A DNA stretch of 64,000 nucleotides from the human T2T-CHM13v2.0 reference genome, Homo sapiens. The notes beneath the pieces were generated by a model. It was not told the DNA's origin and did not search any database. It saw nothing but the letters and a program-made list of their open reading frames with translations. The translations under genes and the position numbers were made by a program. This document shows, in pieces, positions 28,100 to 58,478 of the stretch. Every line of letters begins with the position of its first letter. The stretch's first letter is position 1. The DNA lies in assembly GCF_009914755.1 (NCBI RefSeq), contig NC_060929.1. One strand, 5' to 3'.

Positions 28100-28950
28100 A
28101 AACATTGAAACGGGTCGGCACTGGAATGCCCTCTCCCTGTCGCCCAGGCCCTGTTCTCCCGGGGCTGCACTGACTGGCGGGTCTTTGGCTGCCCTCGCAG
28201 AGATTCCCGGGCAGATGGAGGTCTCAGGGCTGAGGACACCGCCTTCGTAGCCCCGCCCTGGCGGCCCCGCCCGTAGCCTGAGGCCCTGAGGCCCAGCGGC
28301 CCCGCCCCCGCAGCTCCGCCCCCGCAGCCCCGCCCCTGCAATCCTGGTACCCGAAGCTGCGAACCCGCAGCGCAGGCCCAGCCTCCGCAGCGCCATCTCT
28401 GCAGCCCAGTCTCTGCAGCCCCGCCCCCGCAGCCCCACCTCCGAACCCACAGCCCCGCCTCCGACTCTGCAACCCCGCCCCGCAGGCCTGCCGGCAGGTG
28501 CCTAACAGTGACCTCGCCGTGCTGCACTCCCTGCGCGTTGGTCACTTACAGTCGTCGCAGAGGTGGATAAAACTTGAGGTGCCTCCTTCTGCCCTCTTCA
28601 GCTACTTATTCCTGCCAGTGCATACTCCGGCCCTGTGCGTGCGCTTCCACTGGGGAAGTTGTCCCCTGGGGTGGAAGGGTCGAGGCCTCCGTGGGCTTCG
28701 GGTTACTTGGGGAAGCTCGTGACCCTTGGAAGCGAAGCTGCTGGGCAGGCTGCGGGAAGGCTCGCTGGCGCGGGGCTTAGGATTTGGGATGCAGGAGCTT
28801 CCTCTAGGGGTGCGCCTCCTGGCTCGCCGCCAGGGACCGGGCGCTGTCAGGCCTGAGGCCCCTGTGCCCCAGATCCTCCACGGCGGCTGTGCTGGAACCC
28901 CACACTTGCTGGACGTGTGTGCCGGGATCCCCGAGTCCAAGCCAACACCA
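28100..28950. promoter_or_regulatory. CpG island with GC boxes (candidate promoter/enhancer)
   Basis: High GC and CpG density against a CpG-poor background; many CCCCGCCC (Sp/KLF) motifs. Confidence 0.75.
28246..28490. repeat. Degenerate 14-bp tandem repeat GCAGCCCCGCCCCC
   Basis: Read directly within the CpG island. Confidence 0.75.
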
Positions 28951-48665: not shown

Positions 48666-49103
48666 CATTCCTTTTCTCCACAACCTCACCAGCATCTGCT
48701 ATTATTTGACTGTTGAAAAGGGAGCACTTCTACACTCTTGGTGGGAGTGTAAATGAGTTCAGCCATCATGGAAAGTAGTGTGGCGATCTCTCAAAGAACT
48801 TAAAACAGAATTATCATTCTACCAAGCAATCTCATTACTGGCTGTATACCCCAATGAATATAAATTTTTCTACCACAGAGACACACGCACTTGTATGTTC
48901 ATTGCAGCACTATTTACAATAGCAAATATATGGAATCAACCTGAATGCCTAGCGACAGTAGACTGAATAAAGAAAATATGTTACATATACACCATGGAAT
49001 ACTACACAGGTGTAAAACAGAACAAGATCATGTGCTTTTTGCAGCAACATGAATGGAGCTGGAGACCATAATCCTAGGCAGATGCAGGAACAGAAAATCA
49101 AAT
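48666..49103 (+). mobile_element. L1 (L1PB/old L1PA-like) 3' fragment, left half, with short inverted 5' segment
   Basis: ORF2 C-terminal remnant (MFIAALFTIANIWNQPEC); resumes at 54753 after the provirus. Confidence 0.8.
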
Positions 49104-49557
49104 TGTCAGGCCTCTGAGCCCAAGCCAAGCCATTGCATCCCCTGTGACTTGCATGTATATGCCCAGATGGCCTGAAGTAACTGAAGAATCACAAAAGAAG
49201 TGAACATGCCCTGCCCCACCTTAATTGATGACATTCCACCATAAAAGAAGTGTAAATGGCCAGTCCTTGCCTTAAATGATGATATTACCTTGTGAAAGTC
49301 TTTTCCTGGCTCATCCTGGCTCAAAAAGCTCCCCCACTGAGCACCTTGCGACCCCCACTCCTGCCCGCCAGAGAACAAACCCCCTTTGACTGTCATTTTC
49401 CTTTACCTACCCAAATCCTATAAAACAGCCCCACCCTTATCTCCCTTCGCTGACTCTCTTTTCAGACTCAGCCCGCCTGCACCCAGGTGAAATAAACAGC
49501 CATGTTGCTCACACAAACCCTGTTTGGTGGTCTCTTCACACAGACGTGCATGAAATT

Positions 49558-52442: not shown

Positions 52443-54752
52443 CCCTGACACCCATTAGACTCAGCAAATTACTTGGGCTGTACTGCCGCAAGGCTTCAGA
52501 GACAGTCCCCATTACTTCAGTCAAGCCCAAATTTCAACCTCATCTGTTACCTATCTCAGCATAATTCTCATAAAAACACAGGTGCTCTCCCTGCTGATCG
52601 TGTCCTATTAATCTCCCAAACCTCAATTCCTCACAAAACAACAACTCCTTTCCTTCCTAGGCATGGTTAGTGCAGTCAGAATTCTTACACAAGAGCCAGG
52701 ACCACACCGTGTAGCCTTTCTGTCCAAACAACTTGACCTTACTGTTTTAGCCTAGCCCTCATGTCTGTGTGCAGTGGCTGCCGCTGCTTTAATACTGTTA
52801 GAGGCCCTAAAAATCACAAACTATGCTCAACTCACTCTCTACGTTTCTCATAACTTCCAAAATCTATTTTCTTCCTCATACCTGATGCATATACTTTCTG
52901 CTCCCCGGCTCCTTCAGCTGTACTCACTCTTTAAGTCCCACAATTAGCATTGTTCCTGGGCCGGACTTCAATCCAGCCTCCCACATTATTCCTGATACCA
53001 CACCTGACCCCCATGACTGTATCTCTCTGATCCACCTGATATTCACCCCATTTCCCCATATTTCCTTCTTTCCTCTTCCTCACCCTGGTCACGCTTCATT
53101 TATTGATGGCAGTTCCACCAGGCCTAATCACCACACACCGGCAAAGGCAGGTTATGCTATAGTACAAGCCACTAGCCCGCCTCTCAGAACCTCTCATTTC
53201 CTTTCCATCGTGGAAATCTATCCTCAAGGAAATAACTTCTCAGTGTTCCATCTGCTATTCTACTACTACTCAGGGATTATTCAGGCCTCCTCCCTTCCCT
53301 ACACATCAAGCTCGAGGATTTGCCCTCACCCAGGACTGGCAAATTAGCTTTACTCAACATGCCCTGAGTCAGATAACTAAAATACCTCTTAGTCTAGGTA
53401 GACACTTTCACTGGATAGATACAGGCCTTTCCTACAGGGTCTGAGAAGGCCACCGCAGTCATTTCTTTCCTTCTGTCAGACCTAATTCCTCAGTTTAGCC
53501 TTCCCACCTCTATACAGTCTGATAACAGACCAGCCTTCATTAGTCAAATCAGCCAAGCAGTTTTTCAGGCTCTTAGTATTCAGTGAAAACTTTATATCCC
53601 TTACGGTCCTCCGCCTTCAGGAAAAGTAGAACGGACTAAAGGTCTTTTAAAAACACACCTCCCCAAGCTCAGCCACCAACTTAAAAAGGACTGGACAATA
53701 CTTTTACCACTTTCCCTTCTCAGAAGTCAGACCTGTCCTCAGAATGCTACAGGGTACAGCCCATTTAAGCTCCTGTGTAGACGCTCCTTTTTATTAGGCC
53801 CCAGTCTCATTCAACACCAGACCAACTTAGACCATGTCCCCAAAAAACTTGTCATCCCTCCTATCTTTTGTCTAGTCATACTCCTATTCACCGTTCTCAA
53901 CTACTCATACATGCCCTGCTCTTGTTTACACTGCCTGTTTACACTGTTTCTCCAAGCCATCACAGCTGATATCTACCTTTTATACCTGTTTTTCTCCTTC
54001 TCTTATTCCATTTCATTTCTCAATTCATCCAAAACCATATCCAGGCCATCACCAATCATTCTATACGACAAATGTTTCTTCTAACAGTCCCACAATATCT
54101 CCCCTTACCACAAGACCTCCCTTCAGCTTAATCTCTCCCACTCTAGGTTCCCACACTGCCCCTAATCCTGCTTGAAGCAGCCCTGAGAAACATCGCCCAT
54201 TCTCTCTCCATACCACCCCCCAAAAATTTTCGCCGCCCCAACACTTCAACACTATTTTGTTTTATTTTTCTTATTAATATAAGAAGGCAGGAATGTCAGG
54301 CCTCTGAGCCCAAGCCAAGCCATCGCATCCCCTGTGACTTGCAGGTACATGCCCAGATGGCCTGAAGTAACTGAAGAATCACAAAAGAAGTGAATATGCC
54401 CTGCCCCAGCTTAACTGATGACATTCCACCACAAAAGAAGTGTAAATGGCCAGTCCTTGCCTTAAATGATGCTATTACCTTGTGAAAGTCCTTTTCCTGA
54501 CTCATCCTGGCTCAAAAAGCTCCCCCACTGAGCACCTTGCGACCCCCCACTCCTGCCCACCAGAGAACAAACCCCCTTTGACTGTAATTTTCCTTTACCT
54601 ACCCAAATCCTATAAAACAGCCCCACCATTATCTCCCTTCACTGACTCTCTTTTCGGACTCAGCCCGCCTGCACCCAGGTGAAATAAACAGCCATGTTGC
54701 TCACACAAAGCCTGTTTGGTGGTCTCTTCACACGGATGCGCATGAAACAAAT

Positions 54753-55020
54753 ACCACATGTTCTCACTTATAAATGGGAGCGAAACACTGAGTCTACACG
54801 GACACAAAGAATGGAAGGACAGACACTGGGGCCTCCTGGAGGGTGGGAGGAGGAAGAGGATCAAAAAACTACCTTTGGATACTATGCTTAGTACCTGCGT
54901 GATGAAATAATCTGTCCACCAAACCCTTATGATACACAATTTACCTGTATAACAAACCAGTACATGTACCCCTGAACCTAAATAAAGGTTACAAAATAGA
55001 AAATAAATAAACAATGAAAA
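54753..55020 (+). mobile_element. L1 3'UTR, right half of the element split by HERV-H
   Basis: accacatgttctcacttataaatgggag...acatgtacccctgaacctaaataaa plus A-rich tail. Confidence 0.85.
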
Positions 55021-55532
55021 GAAACATTTTAATTTTGGGAAAAACAAGACCTTGATTCCAGGACAGCTATTGAGTAAAACAGCCCATCTTGGATAGTCTG
55101 AAAATATTTCCATTTAAAGTTGGATGAATTTGCATCAGACTCTTGGTTTCTATGATTCATTCATAGAAGTCATTTTCTCTTTTCCTGATCTTTGAAGATT
55201 TATAACCAGAGATTAAAATCCATGCCACGATTCCTGAGATGAATTGTTTTACTATCGAATGCTCATTATATACAATCCCTGAAAGGGTCCAGGAAATAGA
55301 CCTGCATATATTATAGACACAGTTTGTTGGTATCTATCTGAGGATTCCAGGAAAAAAATAATATGAAGGATCAGTCAATACATGAAATTTTGAAAGAAAT
55401 ATTTCTCCCTTTTTTGCCTCTTTGAATTTGAGAGCAAATTATAAGTATTTTAGAAATGAAATTCATGCTCATTCAGTAATCATTCAGAATGTTTATTTCC
55501 AAATCTCTTGATTCCATGTTCTCCCATGATAT

Positions 55533-56267
55533 TGTAACTGCCCAGTGGGTTCACCTTGCCCGCTGCCTAGACAGAGCCGATTCATCAAGAGAGGGGGCCA
55601 TAATCCTAAGCAGATGCAGGAACAGAAAACCAATAGAGAAAGAGTAATTCATACAGAGCCAGCTGTTTGGGAGACCAAAGTTTTATTATTACTCAAATCA
55701 GTCTCCTCAAACCTCCTAGTTTAGGGGTTTTTCATAGGCAGTTTGGGAGAATAGGTTGGGGTGGCCAGGTAACAGGTGCTTACTGCTGATTGATTGGGGC
55801 AGAGATGAAATCATAGGGGGTGGAAGCTGTCCTACTGCAGGCTGAATTGCTTCTGGGTGGGGCCACAGGAGTGGGGTTGGTGGGTCCAAGTGGAGCCATG
55901 GGTGTCAGACATGTAAAAAAAAAAAAAACTGAAAAGATATCTCAAAAGGCCAATCTTAGGTTCTAGGATACTGATATTATTTGCAGGAGCAGTTAGGTCA
56001 GTTGTATGTGGCTGACAATCGTTTCTGCCTGCACCTTAGCAGGGTTAAGGTTCCTCTGCTCCTTCTAGCCTGCCAACCTCTCATTAGCTGGGGAGGGCTA
56101 TTATCATTTAAACTATGAACTAAATGTCTCCCAAAGCTAGCCCAGGAATAATCAAAGGCAGCTGGGGGTGGTGAAGAGACTAAAGCTAGGAGCGGGGTTG
56201 AGCTAGAACAGATCTCCCCCATTGTCACAACCTTCTTGCTGATTCTAATTTTGGAAAGGCAGTTTCA
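55533..56267 (-). mobile_element. ERV1 solo LTR (LTR8-like)
   Basis: TGTAACTGCCCAGTGGGTTCACCTTGCCCGCTGCCTAGACAGAGCCGA ... TTGGAAAGGCAGTTTCA; 4-bp TSD ATAT. Confidence 0.8.
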
Positions 56268-56817
56268 ATATTTTCTTTGAGTCTTTCCAATAGTGTGTAT
56301 CTTATCCTGTCTTGGATTATTGTTTTTGTCCACTTATCTAACTCATTATGTGCTAGCTCAAATATGCTTAAATGATATTCTATACAGTTAGTATAGGGCT
56401 CAAGCAAATGTTTGTTTAACTGAATTAAACTCCCTTTTTCCTGCCTTCTTTTTCGATAGGCACAATGATTAGCAGCTAAAGTTTTCAATGATGATGGCAT
56501 CTTTTATTTCTTCATATGCTTGCAACATTAACTACTTATGTTAAGTCCACTTCTAATATTAAGTTAATCTATATTCATAACCATTCATAACTTTATCTTT
56601 TACTTATGTTTTATAAAATATTCTGAATGACATGTTTAATTTTTTATCATGAGTGGACAGGATCATTTCTGTTGGGAGCATTCATTGTGTTTTTTTGAGA
56701 GCAATGCTATAAATATTTTTGTCTAGTTCATTTGTTTAACATGATTCTCTGATTACTGGGCACCGACTTGTCCTTCTTCCAACCGTTGGAAAGTTGAGCA
56801 GGAATCGCAGCAGCGGT

Positions 56818-57480
56818 TGTCATAGGTGTTAGAACCAGAGTGACTCCATTTTGGGTGAGGGCTAGGAAATTGAAACTGAGACTCCATTTTGAGTGAGGGC
56901 TAGGAAAATGAAACTGCGACTCCATTTTGAGTGAGGGCTGGAAAATGAAACTGAGACTCCATTTTGAGTGAGGGCTGGAAAATGAAACTGGACTTTATTT
57001 TGAGTGAGGGCTAGAAAATGAAACTGAGACTTGCTAGGCTGCATTCTCAGAAAGTTAGGCATTCCGAGGCTCTAGATGTTTAAGGTTAAGGGGACAAATT
57101 AATAATGTTTACTAAACAAACCCAAACTTGGGAGTGTCCAGATATCCTGATATCTGGACATCAAAGGCATTCCTAATTTTGCTTTAAAGATAAGAGTATT
57201 GAATCTTGCAAAATACAGTAGTTAAGAAAATTAATCCTTTATCACAAATCCTTGTAGCAGAGCACACCTCCCCATAGATACAAGCATTGTACCTAGGGTG
57301 GATGTGTTCCTCCTCTTACTTTCAGGAACATCCTACTCAATGGAGTAGCTGTCCTTTCACCACTTTACTTTCCTAATAAACTTGCTTTGACTTTGCACTG
57401 TGGAATAGCCCTGAATTCTTTCTTGCGTGAGATCCAAGAACCCTCTCTTGGGGTCTGGATCAGAAACCTTTCCTGTAACA
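56818..57480 (+). mobile_element. ERV1 solo LTR (MER41 family) with internal tandem expansion
   Basis: TGTCA...gaaccagagtgactccatttt ... aataaacttgcttt...gagatccaagaaccctctcttggggtctggatc...TAACA; 4-bp TSD CGGT at 56814-56817 and 57481-57484. Confidence 0.85.
56842..57052. promoter_or_regulatory. Five tandem 36-38 bp units each with an ISRE (GAAANTGAAACT), plus a GAS site (TTCTCAGAA)
   Basis: ISRE matches at 56866, 56904, 56941, 56978 and 57014; GAS at 57044-57052. Motifs are seen directly; function is untested. Confidence 0.6.
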
Positions 57481-58478
57481 CGGTTACTGAGGACCTGTGG
57501 ATGATGTGGACAAATCCTGTTACATTCCCTGCTGCCGCTTTCTCACCTGTTAAGTGGGATTTATAATACCTGTCTTATCTACATCATGAAGTTGTTTTGG
57601 GAAAAAGTGAAAAAGTAACGATGTACTTTGACATGCCCAAGCACATTCTGGAATGATTATGATGATACGCTTCTTCTAAGGAGAGAAGTGGCAAACGCAC
57701 AAGCCCTGTGCTGTGGCTGTGGCTGACCCCATTCTTCACAGTGACCTTCTCCTGGACCTTGATTCAGCCTCAGAAGCTTTCTCAACACAGTACCAAGAGA
57801 TTAAATTTGGCACAGGATGTAAATTTGCTTTAGAAAGCATGTTTTAGGCGACCCAAGAGATGTTCAATATGATTGAGCTGAAATACTCTATGCAGAGGGT
57901 ATTTGCAAAAAGTACTGGGTCCCTGGCTTCTTCCCCGCCCTTGCCCACACACGTCTACAAGCACATCTCTGTTCACTCACACAGAGGCCAGTCCCTCAAC
58001 CTCGCTGTCTGCTTTTTACAAAAAGCTTCCCCTTCTTGCCCTTTCTCCTTGCCCTGAGACCCAACCTTCCCTCTCAGGCTCACTGATGGAGTCCAGAGCA
58101 CAGACACAGCCTGGGGTCAGAGGGAGCAAGCACAGGTGGCTTCTGAACAAGGTTTCATCTCCTACTCATGCTCCTAGCTGAATCTCCAGAGGAAATGGAT
58201 TATAAATAAATGTCTGTAAGATTGACTTGCTTGATTACATTTCTCTAATCTGTCATTTTGCTTTTTAAATTAAAATTCTTTTTTTTCCCCCTGAAAACAC
58301 ATTATTACATTTGTGGTTAGGTTGTACATCTTGAAACCCTTTATTCTGCCCCAACCACTACTTGGAAACTTATAATTAAGTAACCTGGCATGCTTTCATA
58401 AGAAGTGGAAATTTTCTAAGAACACAATGTGTTGGTGGATGTATCCTGAGAGAGATTTCCTAGTTAAAAAAAAATTAA

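What the first reader, a model, noticed from the sequence alone, without database searches (positions are those of the whole stretch)
56818..57480. MER41-like solo LTR with a five-fold amplified ISRE next to a GAS site: candidate interferon-responsive enhancer
Seen: inside a TSD-bounded (CGGT) LTR, the unit GACTCCATTTTGAGTGAGGGCT(A)GGAAAATGAAACTG(A) repeats five times (56842-57027). Each unit has GAAANTGAAACT, the reverse complement of the ISRE consensus AGTTTCNNTTTC; four read GGAAANNGAAA (Ets/IRF composite type). TTCTCAGAA (GAS, TTCN3GAA) follows 18 bp after the last ISRE. Established: IRFs and ISGF3 bind ISREs, STAT dimers bind GAS, and MER41 copies can act as IFN-gamma-inducible STAT1/IRF1 enhancers. 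Inference: this copy gained an ISRE (my recollection is that the family consensus has one unit reading about GAAAATGAGGCTG) and then multimerised it, much like a synthetic 5xISRE reporter. Unit number may vary between individuals and tune the response. Possible targets are ICE1, the CpG island at 28 kb or the HERV-H LTRs 2-7 kb away.
Basis: partly seen in the sequence, partly recalled or inferred. Interest (0 to 1): 0.8.

Follow-up and report, generated by a model that had tools for sequence, protein, structure and literature searches.

The report
Five-fold interferon-response motif array in LTR
An old retroviral solo LTR downstream of ICE1 gained an optimal interferon-response motif by two base changes and then copied it five times in tandem, giving a unique candidate interferon-responsive enhancer whose action in cells is still untested.

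Summary
Window 56818-57480 is a 663-bp solo LTR with TG..CA ends and a CGGT target-site duplication. It carries a 38-bp unit repeated 5.1 times (56842-57031). Each unit holds GAAANNGAAACT: 5 hits in 64 kb against 0.30 expected.

The evolutionary reading is supported. All 29 relatives fetched from the same genome have one unit, and 0 of 29 have an ISRE (16 read GAGGCT where this copy reads GAAACT). Whole-genome pattern scans find the ISRE-bearing unit and its unit-to-unit junction only here. The family belongs to the MER41 group but is not MER41B.

Three units carry GGAAAATGAAACTG, the best sequence of a JASPAR STAT1-type ISRE matrix. The only other close pair of this core in the genome lies upstream of an Ifi-6-16 family gene. 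A RefSeq enhancer (56810-57089) covers the array and the inherited GAS site.

The motif is not a canonical Ets/IRF composite. A second family copy on chromosome 1 amplified the same segment four times without any ISRE, so amplification needs no selection. Unit divergence suggests an old array.

Interferon response, factor binding, target gene and polymorphism were not testable. I rate it a new variant of a known kind, of moderate interest.

The parts
56814..56817 (.). Left target-site duplication, CGGT
   Evidence: A 4-bp TSD is a family habit: 12 of 26 evaluable relatives have identical 4-bp flanks.
56818..57480 (+). Solo LTR of the MER41 group (not MER41B; subfamily unassigned), 663 bp, TG..CA ends
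   Evidence: 40 scored relatives at 86-89% identity, out of 2670 first-look candidates; only the 5' and 3' ends are homologous to copies that carry the published MER41B motif.
56842..57027 (+). Array of five 36-38-bp units (starts 56842, 56880, 56918, 56955, 56991). Each unit carries a CTCCATTTT-type box and an ISRE. TRF extends the array to 57031.
   Evidence: family D3.
56866..56877 (+). ISRE core 1, GAAATTGAAACT
   Evidence: One mismatch to the 16-nt ISGF3 consensus.
56904..56915 (+). ISRE core 2, GAAAATGAAACT
   Evidence: One mismatch to the ISGF3 consensus. The 14-mer equals the JASPAR-derived best sequence quoted in PMC13030575.
56941..56952 (+). ISRE core 3, GAAAATGAAACT
   Evidence: (two mismatches to the ISGF3 consensus).
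56978..56989 (+). ISRE core 4, GAAAATGAAACT
   Evidence: (two mismatches to the ISGF3 consensus).
57014..57025 (+). ISRE core 5, GAAAATGAAACT, lacking the 5' GG
   Evidence: Not among the hits with up to 2 mismatches.
57044..57052 (+). GAS site TTCTCAGAA, inherited from the family
   Evidence: TTC[T/C]CAGAA is present in 23 of 29 relatives.
56810..57089 (.). RefSeq functional element 'enhancer', covering the LTR start, the array and the GAS site
   Evidence: Hub annotation supplied with the finding. The assay behind it was not seen. Its 280-bp size fits the ATAC-STARR-seq bin format; this is an inference.
57137..57160 (.). Palindrome, 10-nt arms around a 4-nt spacer. A family feature, slightly extended in this copy.
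57273..57281 (+). TATA-like box of the LTR, carrying one substitution relative to most relatives
57353..57373 (-). Family-conserved IRF-like half-site cluster in the R region. It is not a full GAAANNGAAA.
   Evidence: The reading as IRF-like is an inference.
57375..57380 (+). AATAAA polyadenylation signal of the LTR, which fixes its orientation as +
57481..57484 (.). Right target-site duplication, CGGT

Best explanation
A MER41-group retroviral LTR inserted here and was reduced to a solo LTR. In the 5' part of U3, the family's single 38-bp unit changed at two bases: most relatives read GAGGCT and this copy reads GAAACT. That turned GGAAAATGAGGCTG into GGAAAATGAAACTG, an optimal ISGF3/IRF9-type ISRE.

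Replication slippage or unequal exchange then copied the unit stepwise to five, between the 4-nt direct repeat GACT that stands at the unit start and immediately after the unit. Units 3 and 4 are the most recent pair.

The result is five ISREs at 36-38-bp spacing, placed 18 bp upstream of the family's inherited GAS site. I infer that this block binds ISGF3 (STAT1-STAT2-IRF9) and IRF dimers co-operatively, and STAT1 dimers at the GAS site. On that reading it acts as an IRF- and interferon-driven enhancer module, and the RefSeq enhancer call at 56810-57089 reflects this activity.

Shown: the anatomy, the uniqueness of the ISRE array in this genome, the family state, and the motif quality. Inferred: factor binding, interferon inducibility, and the order of the mutational events. 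Any gene-regulatory consequence remains open.
For: - Array and ISRE count are far above chance.
- All 29 fetched relatives have one unit, and 0 of 29 have GAAANNGAAA. At the position of GAAACT, 16 read GAGGCT, 3 GAAGCT and 1 GAGACT.
- Genome-wide, the 30-nt unit with up to 2 mismatches has 41 hits. Of the 39 elsewhere, none reads GAAACT: 27 GAGGCT, 4 GAGACT, 4 GAAGCT, 3 GAGTCT and 1 AAGACT.
- The unit-to-unit junction is found only here, both exact and with up to 3 mismatches.
- The ISRE in unit context is found only here. A looser pattern gives 11 hits: 5 here and 6 elsewhere, against 3 in the controls. The two closest elsewhere are not in a MER41 context.
- Motif quality, from passages of PMC6954429: TGAAAC and GAAACT favour IRF9, GAAANNGAAACT is enriched in IRF9-dominant regions, and the ISGF3 consensus is WBVGGAAANNGAAACT. 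Two units match that consensus at 15 of 16 positions and two at 14 of 16.
- GGAAAATGAAACTG is listed as the JASPAR-derived best 'STAT1' sequence in a table of PMC13030575.
- The only other locus with two GGAAAATGAAAC cores 30-60 bp apart lies 3.8 kb upstream of an exon with the Ifi-6-16 domain, on the same strand (E 5.9e-20).
- The GACT microhomology at both unit borders is read directly from the sequence.
- The RefSeq enhancer at 56810-57089 comes from the hub annotation.
- None of about 8 mutational events among the units hits the 10 specified ISRE positions. The probability under neutrality is about 0.09, which is only suggestive.
Against: - No binding, accessibility or induction data could be consulted.
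- The assay and cell type behind the RefSeq feature are unknown to me.
- If it is a plasmid reporter assay, ISRE-driven signal can reflect the transfection-induced interferon response. The ATAC-STARR authors name this concern.
- A second copy of the subfamily (G000:C1:236719293-236719483) amplified the same segment 4-fold with a 48-bp period while keeping the non-ISRE state. Amplification therefore needs no selection for ISREs.
- No gene is annotated within 100 kb downstream. ICE1 ends 33 kb upstream, and I know of no evidence that it is interferon-regulated.
- The LTR's TATA-like box is altered in this copy.
- The P of about 0.09 for ISRE conservation is not significant.
Confidence: 0.6

Rival explanations
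1. The array is a neutral minisatellite with no function in cells. It is a slippage product in a U3 segment that is prone to duplication. The ISRE is a chance by-product of two common G-to-A transitions. The enhancer call reflects episomal reporter behaviour only, and the locus regulates nothing in chromatin.
For: - The same segment amplified independently in another copy without an ISRE.
- Both single-step intermediates, GAAGCT and GAGACT, occur in other copies.
- Conservation of the ISRE cores is not significant (P about 0.09).
- No gene is annotated for 100 kb downstream (hub annotation).
- The plasmid-induced interferon response is a recognised confounder of STARR-type assays (abstract of PMC11668083 in the listing).
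Against: - Five near-optimal ISGF3 sites are a strong binding platform wherever the chromatin allows.
- If the RefSeq feature is an ATAC-STARR region, the DNA was accessible in the source cells. That is an inference from the sizes of the features.
Confidence: 0.27
2. It is a constitutive lymphoid IRF enhancer rather than an interferon-inducible one. In B cells or myeloid cells the array is held open and driven by abundant IRF4, IRF8, IRF5, IRF7 or IRF2 dimers on the ISREs, independently of ISGF3.
For: - IRF family motifs are the most enriched in active ATAC-STARR regions of the lymphoblastoid line GM12878, harvested at a time chosen to avoid the plasmid interferon response.
Against: - The canonical PU.1-IRF composite GGAANNGAAA is absent from the array.
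- The TGAAACT half-site and the 5' GG fit IRF9/ISGF3 best.
- That the RefSeq feature comes from the lymphoblastoid data set is only my inference.
Confidence: 0.1
3. The activity comes from another amplified motif, not the ISRE. Candidates are the CTCCATTTT box (I recall this as a YY1-type initiator sequence) or the inherited GAS site and other MER41 sites.
For: - CTCCATTTT is present in 4 of 5 units. It has 5 hits in the window against 1.7 expected, and 3 of 100 shuffles reach 5. It occurs in 18 of 29 relatives.
- YY1 is named among motifs enriched in active ATAC-STARR regions.
- MER41 elements bind STAT1 at GAS sites (PMC2897888).
Against: - The single-unit relatives carry the same box and GAS site, so these cannot explain what is special here.
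- That the box is a YY1 site is recalled, not tested.
Confidence: 0.05

Closest known systems
MER41 LTRs as interferon-gamma-inducible STAT1/IRF1 enhancers (Schmid and Bucher 2010, PMC2897888, passages read. Chuong et al. 2016 was not held, and is cited only through PMC10069462, passages read.)
   Same: - It is an LTR of the primate-specific MER41 group.
- It keeps the family's GAS site in the 5' part of U3.
- It is a solo LTR away from promoters.
   Different: - It is not MER41B, the subfamily with tandem GAS sites at 21-bp spacing. Only the ends align to MER41B-motif copies, at 71-86%.
- The distinguishing feature is a five-fold ISRE array specific to this locus. That predicts ISGF3 and type I/III interferon input, which the family state lacks (0 of 29 relatives have GAAANNGAAA).
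LTR10A/LTR10F internal VNTR carrying AP-1 motifs (Ivancevic et al. 2024, Sci Adv, passages read)
   Same: It is a tandem repeat of about 30-40 bp inside an ERV1-type LTR, and each unit carries one transcription-factor site. Unit number therefore sets motif copy number.
   Different: - The LTR10 VNTR is a subfamily-wide feature and is shown to be polymorphic.
- Here amplification is seen at 2 loci, among about 587 unit matches genome-wide. Only one of the two has the motif.
- The factor class is IRF/STAT, not AP-1.
- Polymorphism is untested.
Tandem ISRE pair upstream of the chromosome 1 Ifi-6-16 family gene. I recall this gene as IFI6 (6-16); the gene name comes from memory.
   Same: - It has the same core, GGAAAATGAAAC(T).
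- The core is repeated head to tail within direct repeats of similar period: 41 bp there, 36-38 bp here.
- These are the only two loci in the genome that meet the pair pattern with GAAAC cores.
   Different: - There are two copies there, directly upstream of CCAAT-like and TATA-like boxes of a gene. Here there are five copies in an LTR with no annotated gene nearby.
- The two loci have independent origins.
Synthetic multimerised ISRE reporters (a general laboratory tool, recalled)
   Same: Several ISREs are arranged head to tail.
   Different: This is a natural array with 36-38-bp spacing, extra sequence in each unit, and an adjacent GAS site.

Membership tests
MER41-group LTR (ERV1) | LTR termini TG..CA with a 4-bp target-site duplication | tested here: met
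   (CGGT on both sides). 12 of 26 evaluable relatives have identical 4-bp flanks, and at least 7 others run into a shared internal sequence, as 5' LTRs would.
MER41-group LTR (ERV1) | Sequence homology to copies identified as MER41 by a published marker | tested here: met
   The MEME motif that PMC2897888 attributes to MER41B has 976 genome hits with up to 1 mismatch. All 12 fetched copies align to this LTR at the 3' end, within positions 516-663, at 71-86%. 10 of the 12 also align at the 5' end (positions 1-65 and/or 174-247) at 72-84%.
MER41B subfamily | Full-length similarity, including the central region that carries the published MER41B motif | tested here: not met
   The central part, about positions 250-515, gives no alignment to any of the 12 MER41B-motif copies.
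MER41-group LTR (ERV1) | Best match to a Dfam/Repbase MER41A-G consensus (subfamily assignment) | not testable with these tools
   No repeat library is on hand.
ISRE of the ISGF3/IRF9 type | Core GAAANNGAAACT | tested here: met
   5 of 5 units. The definition and its IRF9 enrichment come from PMC6954429.
ISRE of the ISGF3/IRF9 type | Extended consensus WBVGGAAANNGAAACT | tested here: inconclusive
   Units 1 and 2 have 1 mismatch and units 3 and 4 have 2. Unit 5 is not among the hits with up to 2 mismatches.
ISRE of the ISGF3/IRF9 type | Interferon-induced occupancy by STAT1/STAT2/IRF9, and interferon-dependent transcription | not testable with these tools
   No ChIP, ATAC or expression data are available. 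Supplement searches for ICE1 in four papers found nothing, and one supplement was unreadable.
Ets-IRF composite element (EICE) | GGAA and GAAA separated by exactly 2 bases (GGAANNGAAA) | tested here: not met
   0 of the 11 window hits lie in the array. The spacing in the units is 3 bases.
GAS site | TTCNNNGAA palindrome | tested here: met
   57044-57052. Not above chance on its own, but conserved in 23 of 29 relatives.
TE-embedded VNTR enhancer (LTR10A/F type) | The tandem unit with the factor motif is a subfamily-wide feature | tested here: not met
   29 of 29 fetched relatives have a single unit. Pair scans find one other amplified copy in the genome.
TE-embedded VNTR enhancer (LTR10A/F type) | Length polymorphism between individuals | not testable with these tools
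   Only one human assembly is held.

The most novel reading that the evidence does not exclude
This would be a 'super-ISRE' that evolved de novo. Two point changes in one MER41-group LTR, followed by four duplications, built a five-site ISGF3 platform that converges on the tandem-ISRE architecture of the Ifi-6-16 gene promoter. In vivo it would work as an enhancer or promoter inducible by type I/III interferon, acting on ICE1 or on an unannotated transcript in the gene-poor region downstream. Unit number would differ between people or between apes and would tune the response.
Probability: 0.15. Interest if true: 0.65.

Novelty: new variant of a known kind. Interest (0 to 1): 0.45.

Why it matters
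MER41 LTRs are the textbook case of retroviral DNA co-opted for interferon-gamma signalling through inherited GAS sites. This copy shows a different route. After insertion, one copy acquired an input the family lacks (an ISGF3-type ISRE) and then raised its dosage by local duplication.

The genome also supplies natural controls: single-unit relatives, one-step intermediates, and a four-fold array without an ISRE on chromosome 1. These make the contribution of motif gain and of motif number directly testable.

If the array is active in chromatin, it would add a type I interferon-responsive element next to ICE1, in a region with few annotated genes. If it is inactive, it is a clean example of a strong reporter-assay enhancer without a role in the genome. 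That would be useful for judging annotations based on STARR-type assays.

Tried and rejected
- Chuong et al. 2016 could not be read under the PMC id I recalled. MER41 background therefore rests on PMC2897888 and PMC10069462.
- Subfamily assignment (MER41A, C, D, E or G) was not possible without a repeat library. I can only exclude MER41B.
- Supplement searches for ICE1 or KIAA0947 found nothing in PMC10069462 (one file not searched), PMC11019363, PMC10743977 or PMC6606597. The supplement of PMC11934927 was too large to read. These files may still hold peak lists by coordinate that I could not query.
- A literature search for the 13-mer found 4 papers, and only one was relevant.
- Searches combining MER41 with ISRE and tandem repeat, with IRF and STARR-seq, and with ISGF3, STAT2 and IRF9, plus VNTR with LTR and enhancer, turned up no description of this array or of any ISRE array in MER41.
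- I first concluded that amplification of the unit was unique to this locus. One search showed this was wrong: the chromosome 1 copy has a 48-bp period, which lay outside the gap range. Only the ISRE-bearing array is unique.
- The argument 'two rare events in one copy imply selection' was dropped for the same reason, and also because of ascertainment bias.
- The Ets/IRF composite reading was rejected on spacing.
- The pair scans require exact cores, so strongly decayed arrays in other copies could have been missed.

Full report
**Observation.** CGGT stands at 56814-56817 and again at 57481-57484. It flanks a 663-bp element that begins with TG and ends with CA and carries AATAAA at 57375-57380. 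Tandem Repeats Finder reports a 38-bp unit, 5.1 copies, 92% matches and score 317 at 56842-57031. The five units start at 56842, 56880, 56918, 56955 and 56991 and are 38, 38, 37, 36 and 37 nt long. GAAANNGAAACT occurs five times in the 64-kb window, once per unit, against 0.30 expected; 0 of 100 shuffles reach five. TTCTCAGAA lies at 57044-57052, 18 bp after the last core. TTCNNNGAA as such is at chance level in the window (26 against 26.6).

**What the element is.** The window's own assembly could be searched. The LTR gave 2670 first-look candidates. The 40 that were scored are 86-89% identical, and all align as query 1-56/66 plus 174/180-663. That is, they carry one unit where this copy has five. 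I fetched 29 relatives; two of them, L017 and L018, are identical duplicates on the X chromosome.
- Of 26 relatives whose ends could be placed, 12 have identical 4-bp flanks. At least 7 others continue into a shared internal sequence, as 5' LTRs of proviruses would.
- The element here is followed by unique sequence and has a matching TSD, so it is a solo LTR.

To tie the family to a name I used the MEME motif that Schmid and Bucher (PMC2897888, passages read) attribute to MER41B. It has 976 matches with up to 1 mismatch in the genome. All twelve copies fetched align with this LTR at the 3' end (within positions 516-663, 71-86%), and ten of them also at the 5' end (1-65 and 174-247, 72-84%). 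None aligns in the middle. The homologous 5' stretch of those copies reads differently in the unit. So this is a MER41-group LTR but not MER41B. I cannot name the subfamily without a repeat library.

**Is the ISRE array specific to this locus?** Yes.
- In the 29 relatives, none has GAAANNGAAA. At the position of GAAACT, 16 read GAGGCT, 3 AAGGCT, 3 GAAGCT, and one each AAGACT, GAGGCC, GAGTCT, GAGGTT, GAGACT and GAGGAT; one could not be placed.
- Genome-wide, the 30-nt unit with up to 2 mismatches has 41 matches. Of the 39 outside this locus, 27 read GAGGCT, 4 GAGACT, 4 GAAGCT, 3 GAGTCT and 1 AAGACT; none reads GAAACT.
- The ISRE in unit context is found only here (4 exact matches).
- A looser pattern gives 11 hits: 5 here and 6 elsewhere, against 3 in the reversed-pattern controls. 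The two best hits elsewhere are not in a MER41 context.
- The junction between units is found only here, both exact and with up to 3 mismatches.

**Is amplification itself unique?** No, and I first got this wrong. A scan for the unit core with up to 3 mismatches gave 587 matches (20 in controls). It showed three cores close together on chromosome 1. That copy (G000:C1:236719293-236719483; L088 494-684) has a 48-bp unit repeated 4.0 times at 95% identity. Its unit begins at the same GACTCC but extends 10 nt further, and every unit keeps GAGGCC, so it has no ISRE. My earlier pair scan had a gap range too narrow to see it. Two further pair scans find no third amplified copy with exact cores. This U3 segment has therefore been duplicated in tandem at least twice, independently and with different borders. 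Amplification does not need an ISRE or selection.

**How the array arose (inference).** All five units carry GAAACT, so the two G-to-A changes most simply came first. Both one-step intermediates exist in other copies. The unit begins with GACT, and the sequence right after the unit in single-unit relatives also begins with GACT. This 4-nt direct repeat 38 bp apart is a natural substrate for slippage or unequal exchange. Units 3 and 4 share a one-base deletion and differ only by one further indel, so they are the youngest pair.

The mean pairwise substitution difference among units is 2.1 per about 37.5 nt (5.6%). The rest of the LTR differs from its 29 relatives by 11.2%, and the relatives differ among themselves by 11.3%. 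Taken at face value the array is about half as old as the family's spread. That makes it old rather than recent, with wide error and possible homogenisation by conversion. I therefore expect it to be shared among apes, and I do not expect a highly unstable VNTR. Neither point could be tested.

**Motif quality.** Passages of PMC6954429 state three things. TGAAAC is bound better by IRF9 than by IRF3, IRF5 or IRF6. GAAACT and GAAANNGAAACT are enriched in IRF9-dominant regions. The detailed ISGF3 consensus is WBVGGAAANNGAAACT. Units 1 and 2 match that 16-mer with one mismatch and units 3 and 4 with two. Unit 5 lacks the 5' GG.

The 14-mer of units 2-4, GGAAAATGAAACTG, is listed in a table of PMC13030575 as the exact sequence derived from the JASPAR matrix under 'STAT1'. 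In a genome-wide scan for two GGAAAATRANNC cores 30-60 bp apart (39 hits), only two loci have GAAAC-type pairs: this one and G000:C1:27513580-27513632 on the minus strand. There, two 41-bp direct repeats each hold GGGAAAATGAAACT, upstream of CCAAT-like and TATA-like boxes. An exon with the Ifi-6-16 domain (PF06140, E 5.9e-20) lies 3.8 kb downstream on the same strand. I recall this gene as IFI6; the name comes from memory. The array thus repeats, five-fold, the core of a classical interferon-stimulated promoter.

The 'Ets/IRF composite' label does not hold. GGAANNGAAA has 11 hits in the window and none in the array.

**Other content.**
- Each of units 1-4 also carries CTCCATTTT. It has 5 window hits against 1.7 expected and occurs in 18 of 29 relatives. 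I recall this as a YY1-type sequence but did not test that.
- The GAS site is inherited: TTCTCAGAA in 13 and TTCCCAGAA in 10 of 29 relatives.
- A palindrome at 57137-57160 and an IRF-like cluster in R are family features.
- The LTR's TATA-like box carries one substitution here. This fits an enhancer role better than a promoter role.

**Functional evidence.** The hub annotation lists a RefSeq enhancer at 56810-57089, which is the LTR start, the whole array and the GAS site. I did not see its source. Its length (280 bp), and those of the window's two silencers (50 and 80 bp), fit regions merged from 50-bp bins at 10-bp steps, as in ATAC-STARR-seq of GM12878 cells. In that study IRF motifs are the most enriched in active regions, and the harvest time was chosen to limit the plasmid-induced interferon response (PMC9435738, passages). 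I put the odds of this attribution at about 0.7. If it is right, the DNA was accessible and active in lymphoblastoid cells. No binding or induction data could be consulted. Supplement searches for ICE1 in four papers found nothing and one supplement was unreadable.

**Weighing the readings.** The anatomy and the evolutionary story are well supported. That five near-optimal ISREs respond to IRFs or ISGF3 in a reporter is close to certain from general knowledge. That they do so in chromatin is plausible. That they regulate a gene is open: ICE1 ends 33 kb upstream and nothing is annotated for 100 kb downstream. None of about 8 mutational events among the units hit the 10 specified core positions, which gives P of about 0.09 and is not significant. 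The ISRE-free array on chromosome 1 removes the argument that amplification implies selection.

**Comparison with what is known.**
- MER41 elements are known as interferon-gamma/STAT1/IRF1 enhancers (PMC2897888; PMC10069462, passages).
- LTR10A/F elements are known to carry a subfamily-wide, polymorphic 28-30-bp VNTR with AP-1 motifs (Ivancevic et al. 2024, passages).
- This case combines the two ideas in a new way: a locus-specific gain of a motif class that the family lacks, followed by local multimerisation.
- My four literature searches found no description of it.

**Verdict.** I rate it a new variant of a known kind, with interest 0.45.

Noticed in passing
L088 494-684 (G000:C1:236719293-236719483): Another copy of the same LTR subfamily has a 48-bp unit repeated 4.0 times at 95% identity. 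It covers the same U3 segment plus 10 more bases, and every unit keeps the non-ISRE state. It is a natural control for the effect of unit number without an ISRE.
   Followed up: yes
L089 9570-9660, minus strand (G000:C1:27513580-27513632): Two 41-bp direct repeats, each with GGGAAAATGAAACT, lie upstream of CCAAT-like and TATA-like boxes. An Ifi-6-16 domain exon lies 3.8 kb downstream on the same strand. It is the only other locus in the genome with two such cores 30-60 bp apart.
   Followed up: yes
window 49104-49555 and 54294-54747: Two long direct repeats about 5190 bp apart and 96-98% identical look like the LTR pair of a provirus of about 5.6 kb, 2 kb upstream of the MER41-group LTR. RefSeq enhancers at 53871-55163 overlap the downstream LTR.
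   Followed up: partly
window 49061-49101 and 55593-55633: A 41-nt direct repeat (90% identical) lies just outside the provirus-like element on both sides. It contains GGAACAGAAA, one of five such hits in the window. It may be part of an older repeat.
   Followed up: no
window 57137-57160: A palindrome with 10-nt arms and a 4-nt spacer sits in the LTR body. Relatives carry nearly the same palindrome, so it is a conserved family feature of unknown role.
   Followed up: partly
window 57273-57281: The TATA-like box that most relatives share carries one substitution in this copy.
   Followed up: partly
L017 and L018 (G000:C23:74577558-74578052 and 74583722-74584216): Two copies of the LTR on the X chromosome, about 6 kb apart in opposite orientation, are identical over 458 aligned bases and have the same flanks. 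This looks like a recent inverted duplication.
   Followed up: no
window 28362-28531: The two RefSeq silencers (50 and 80 bp) near the CpG island have the bin-like sizes expected of ATAC-STARR silent regions. That is part of my reason for the inferred source of the enhancer call.
   Followed up: no
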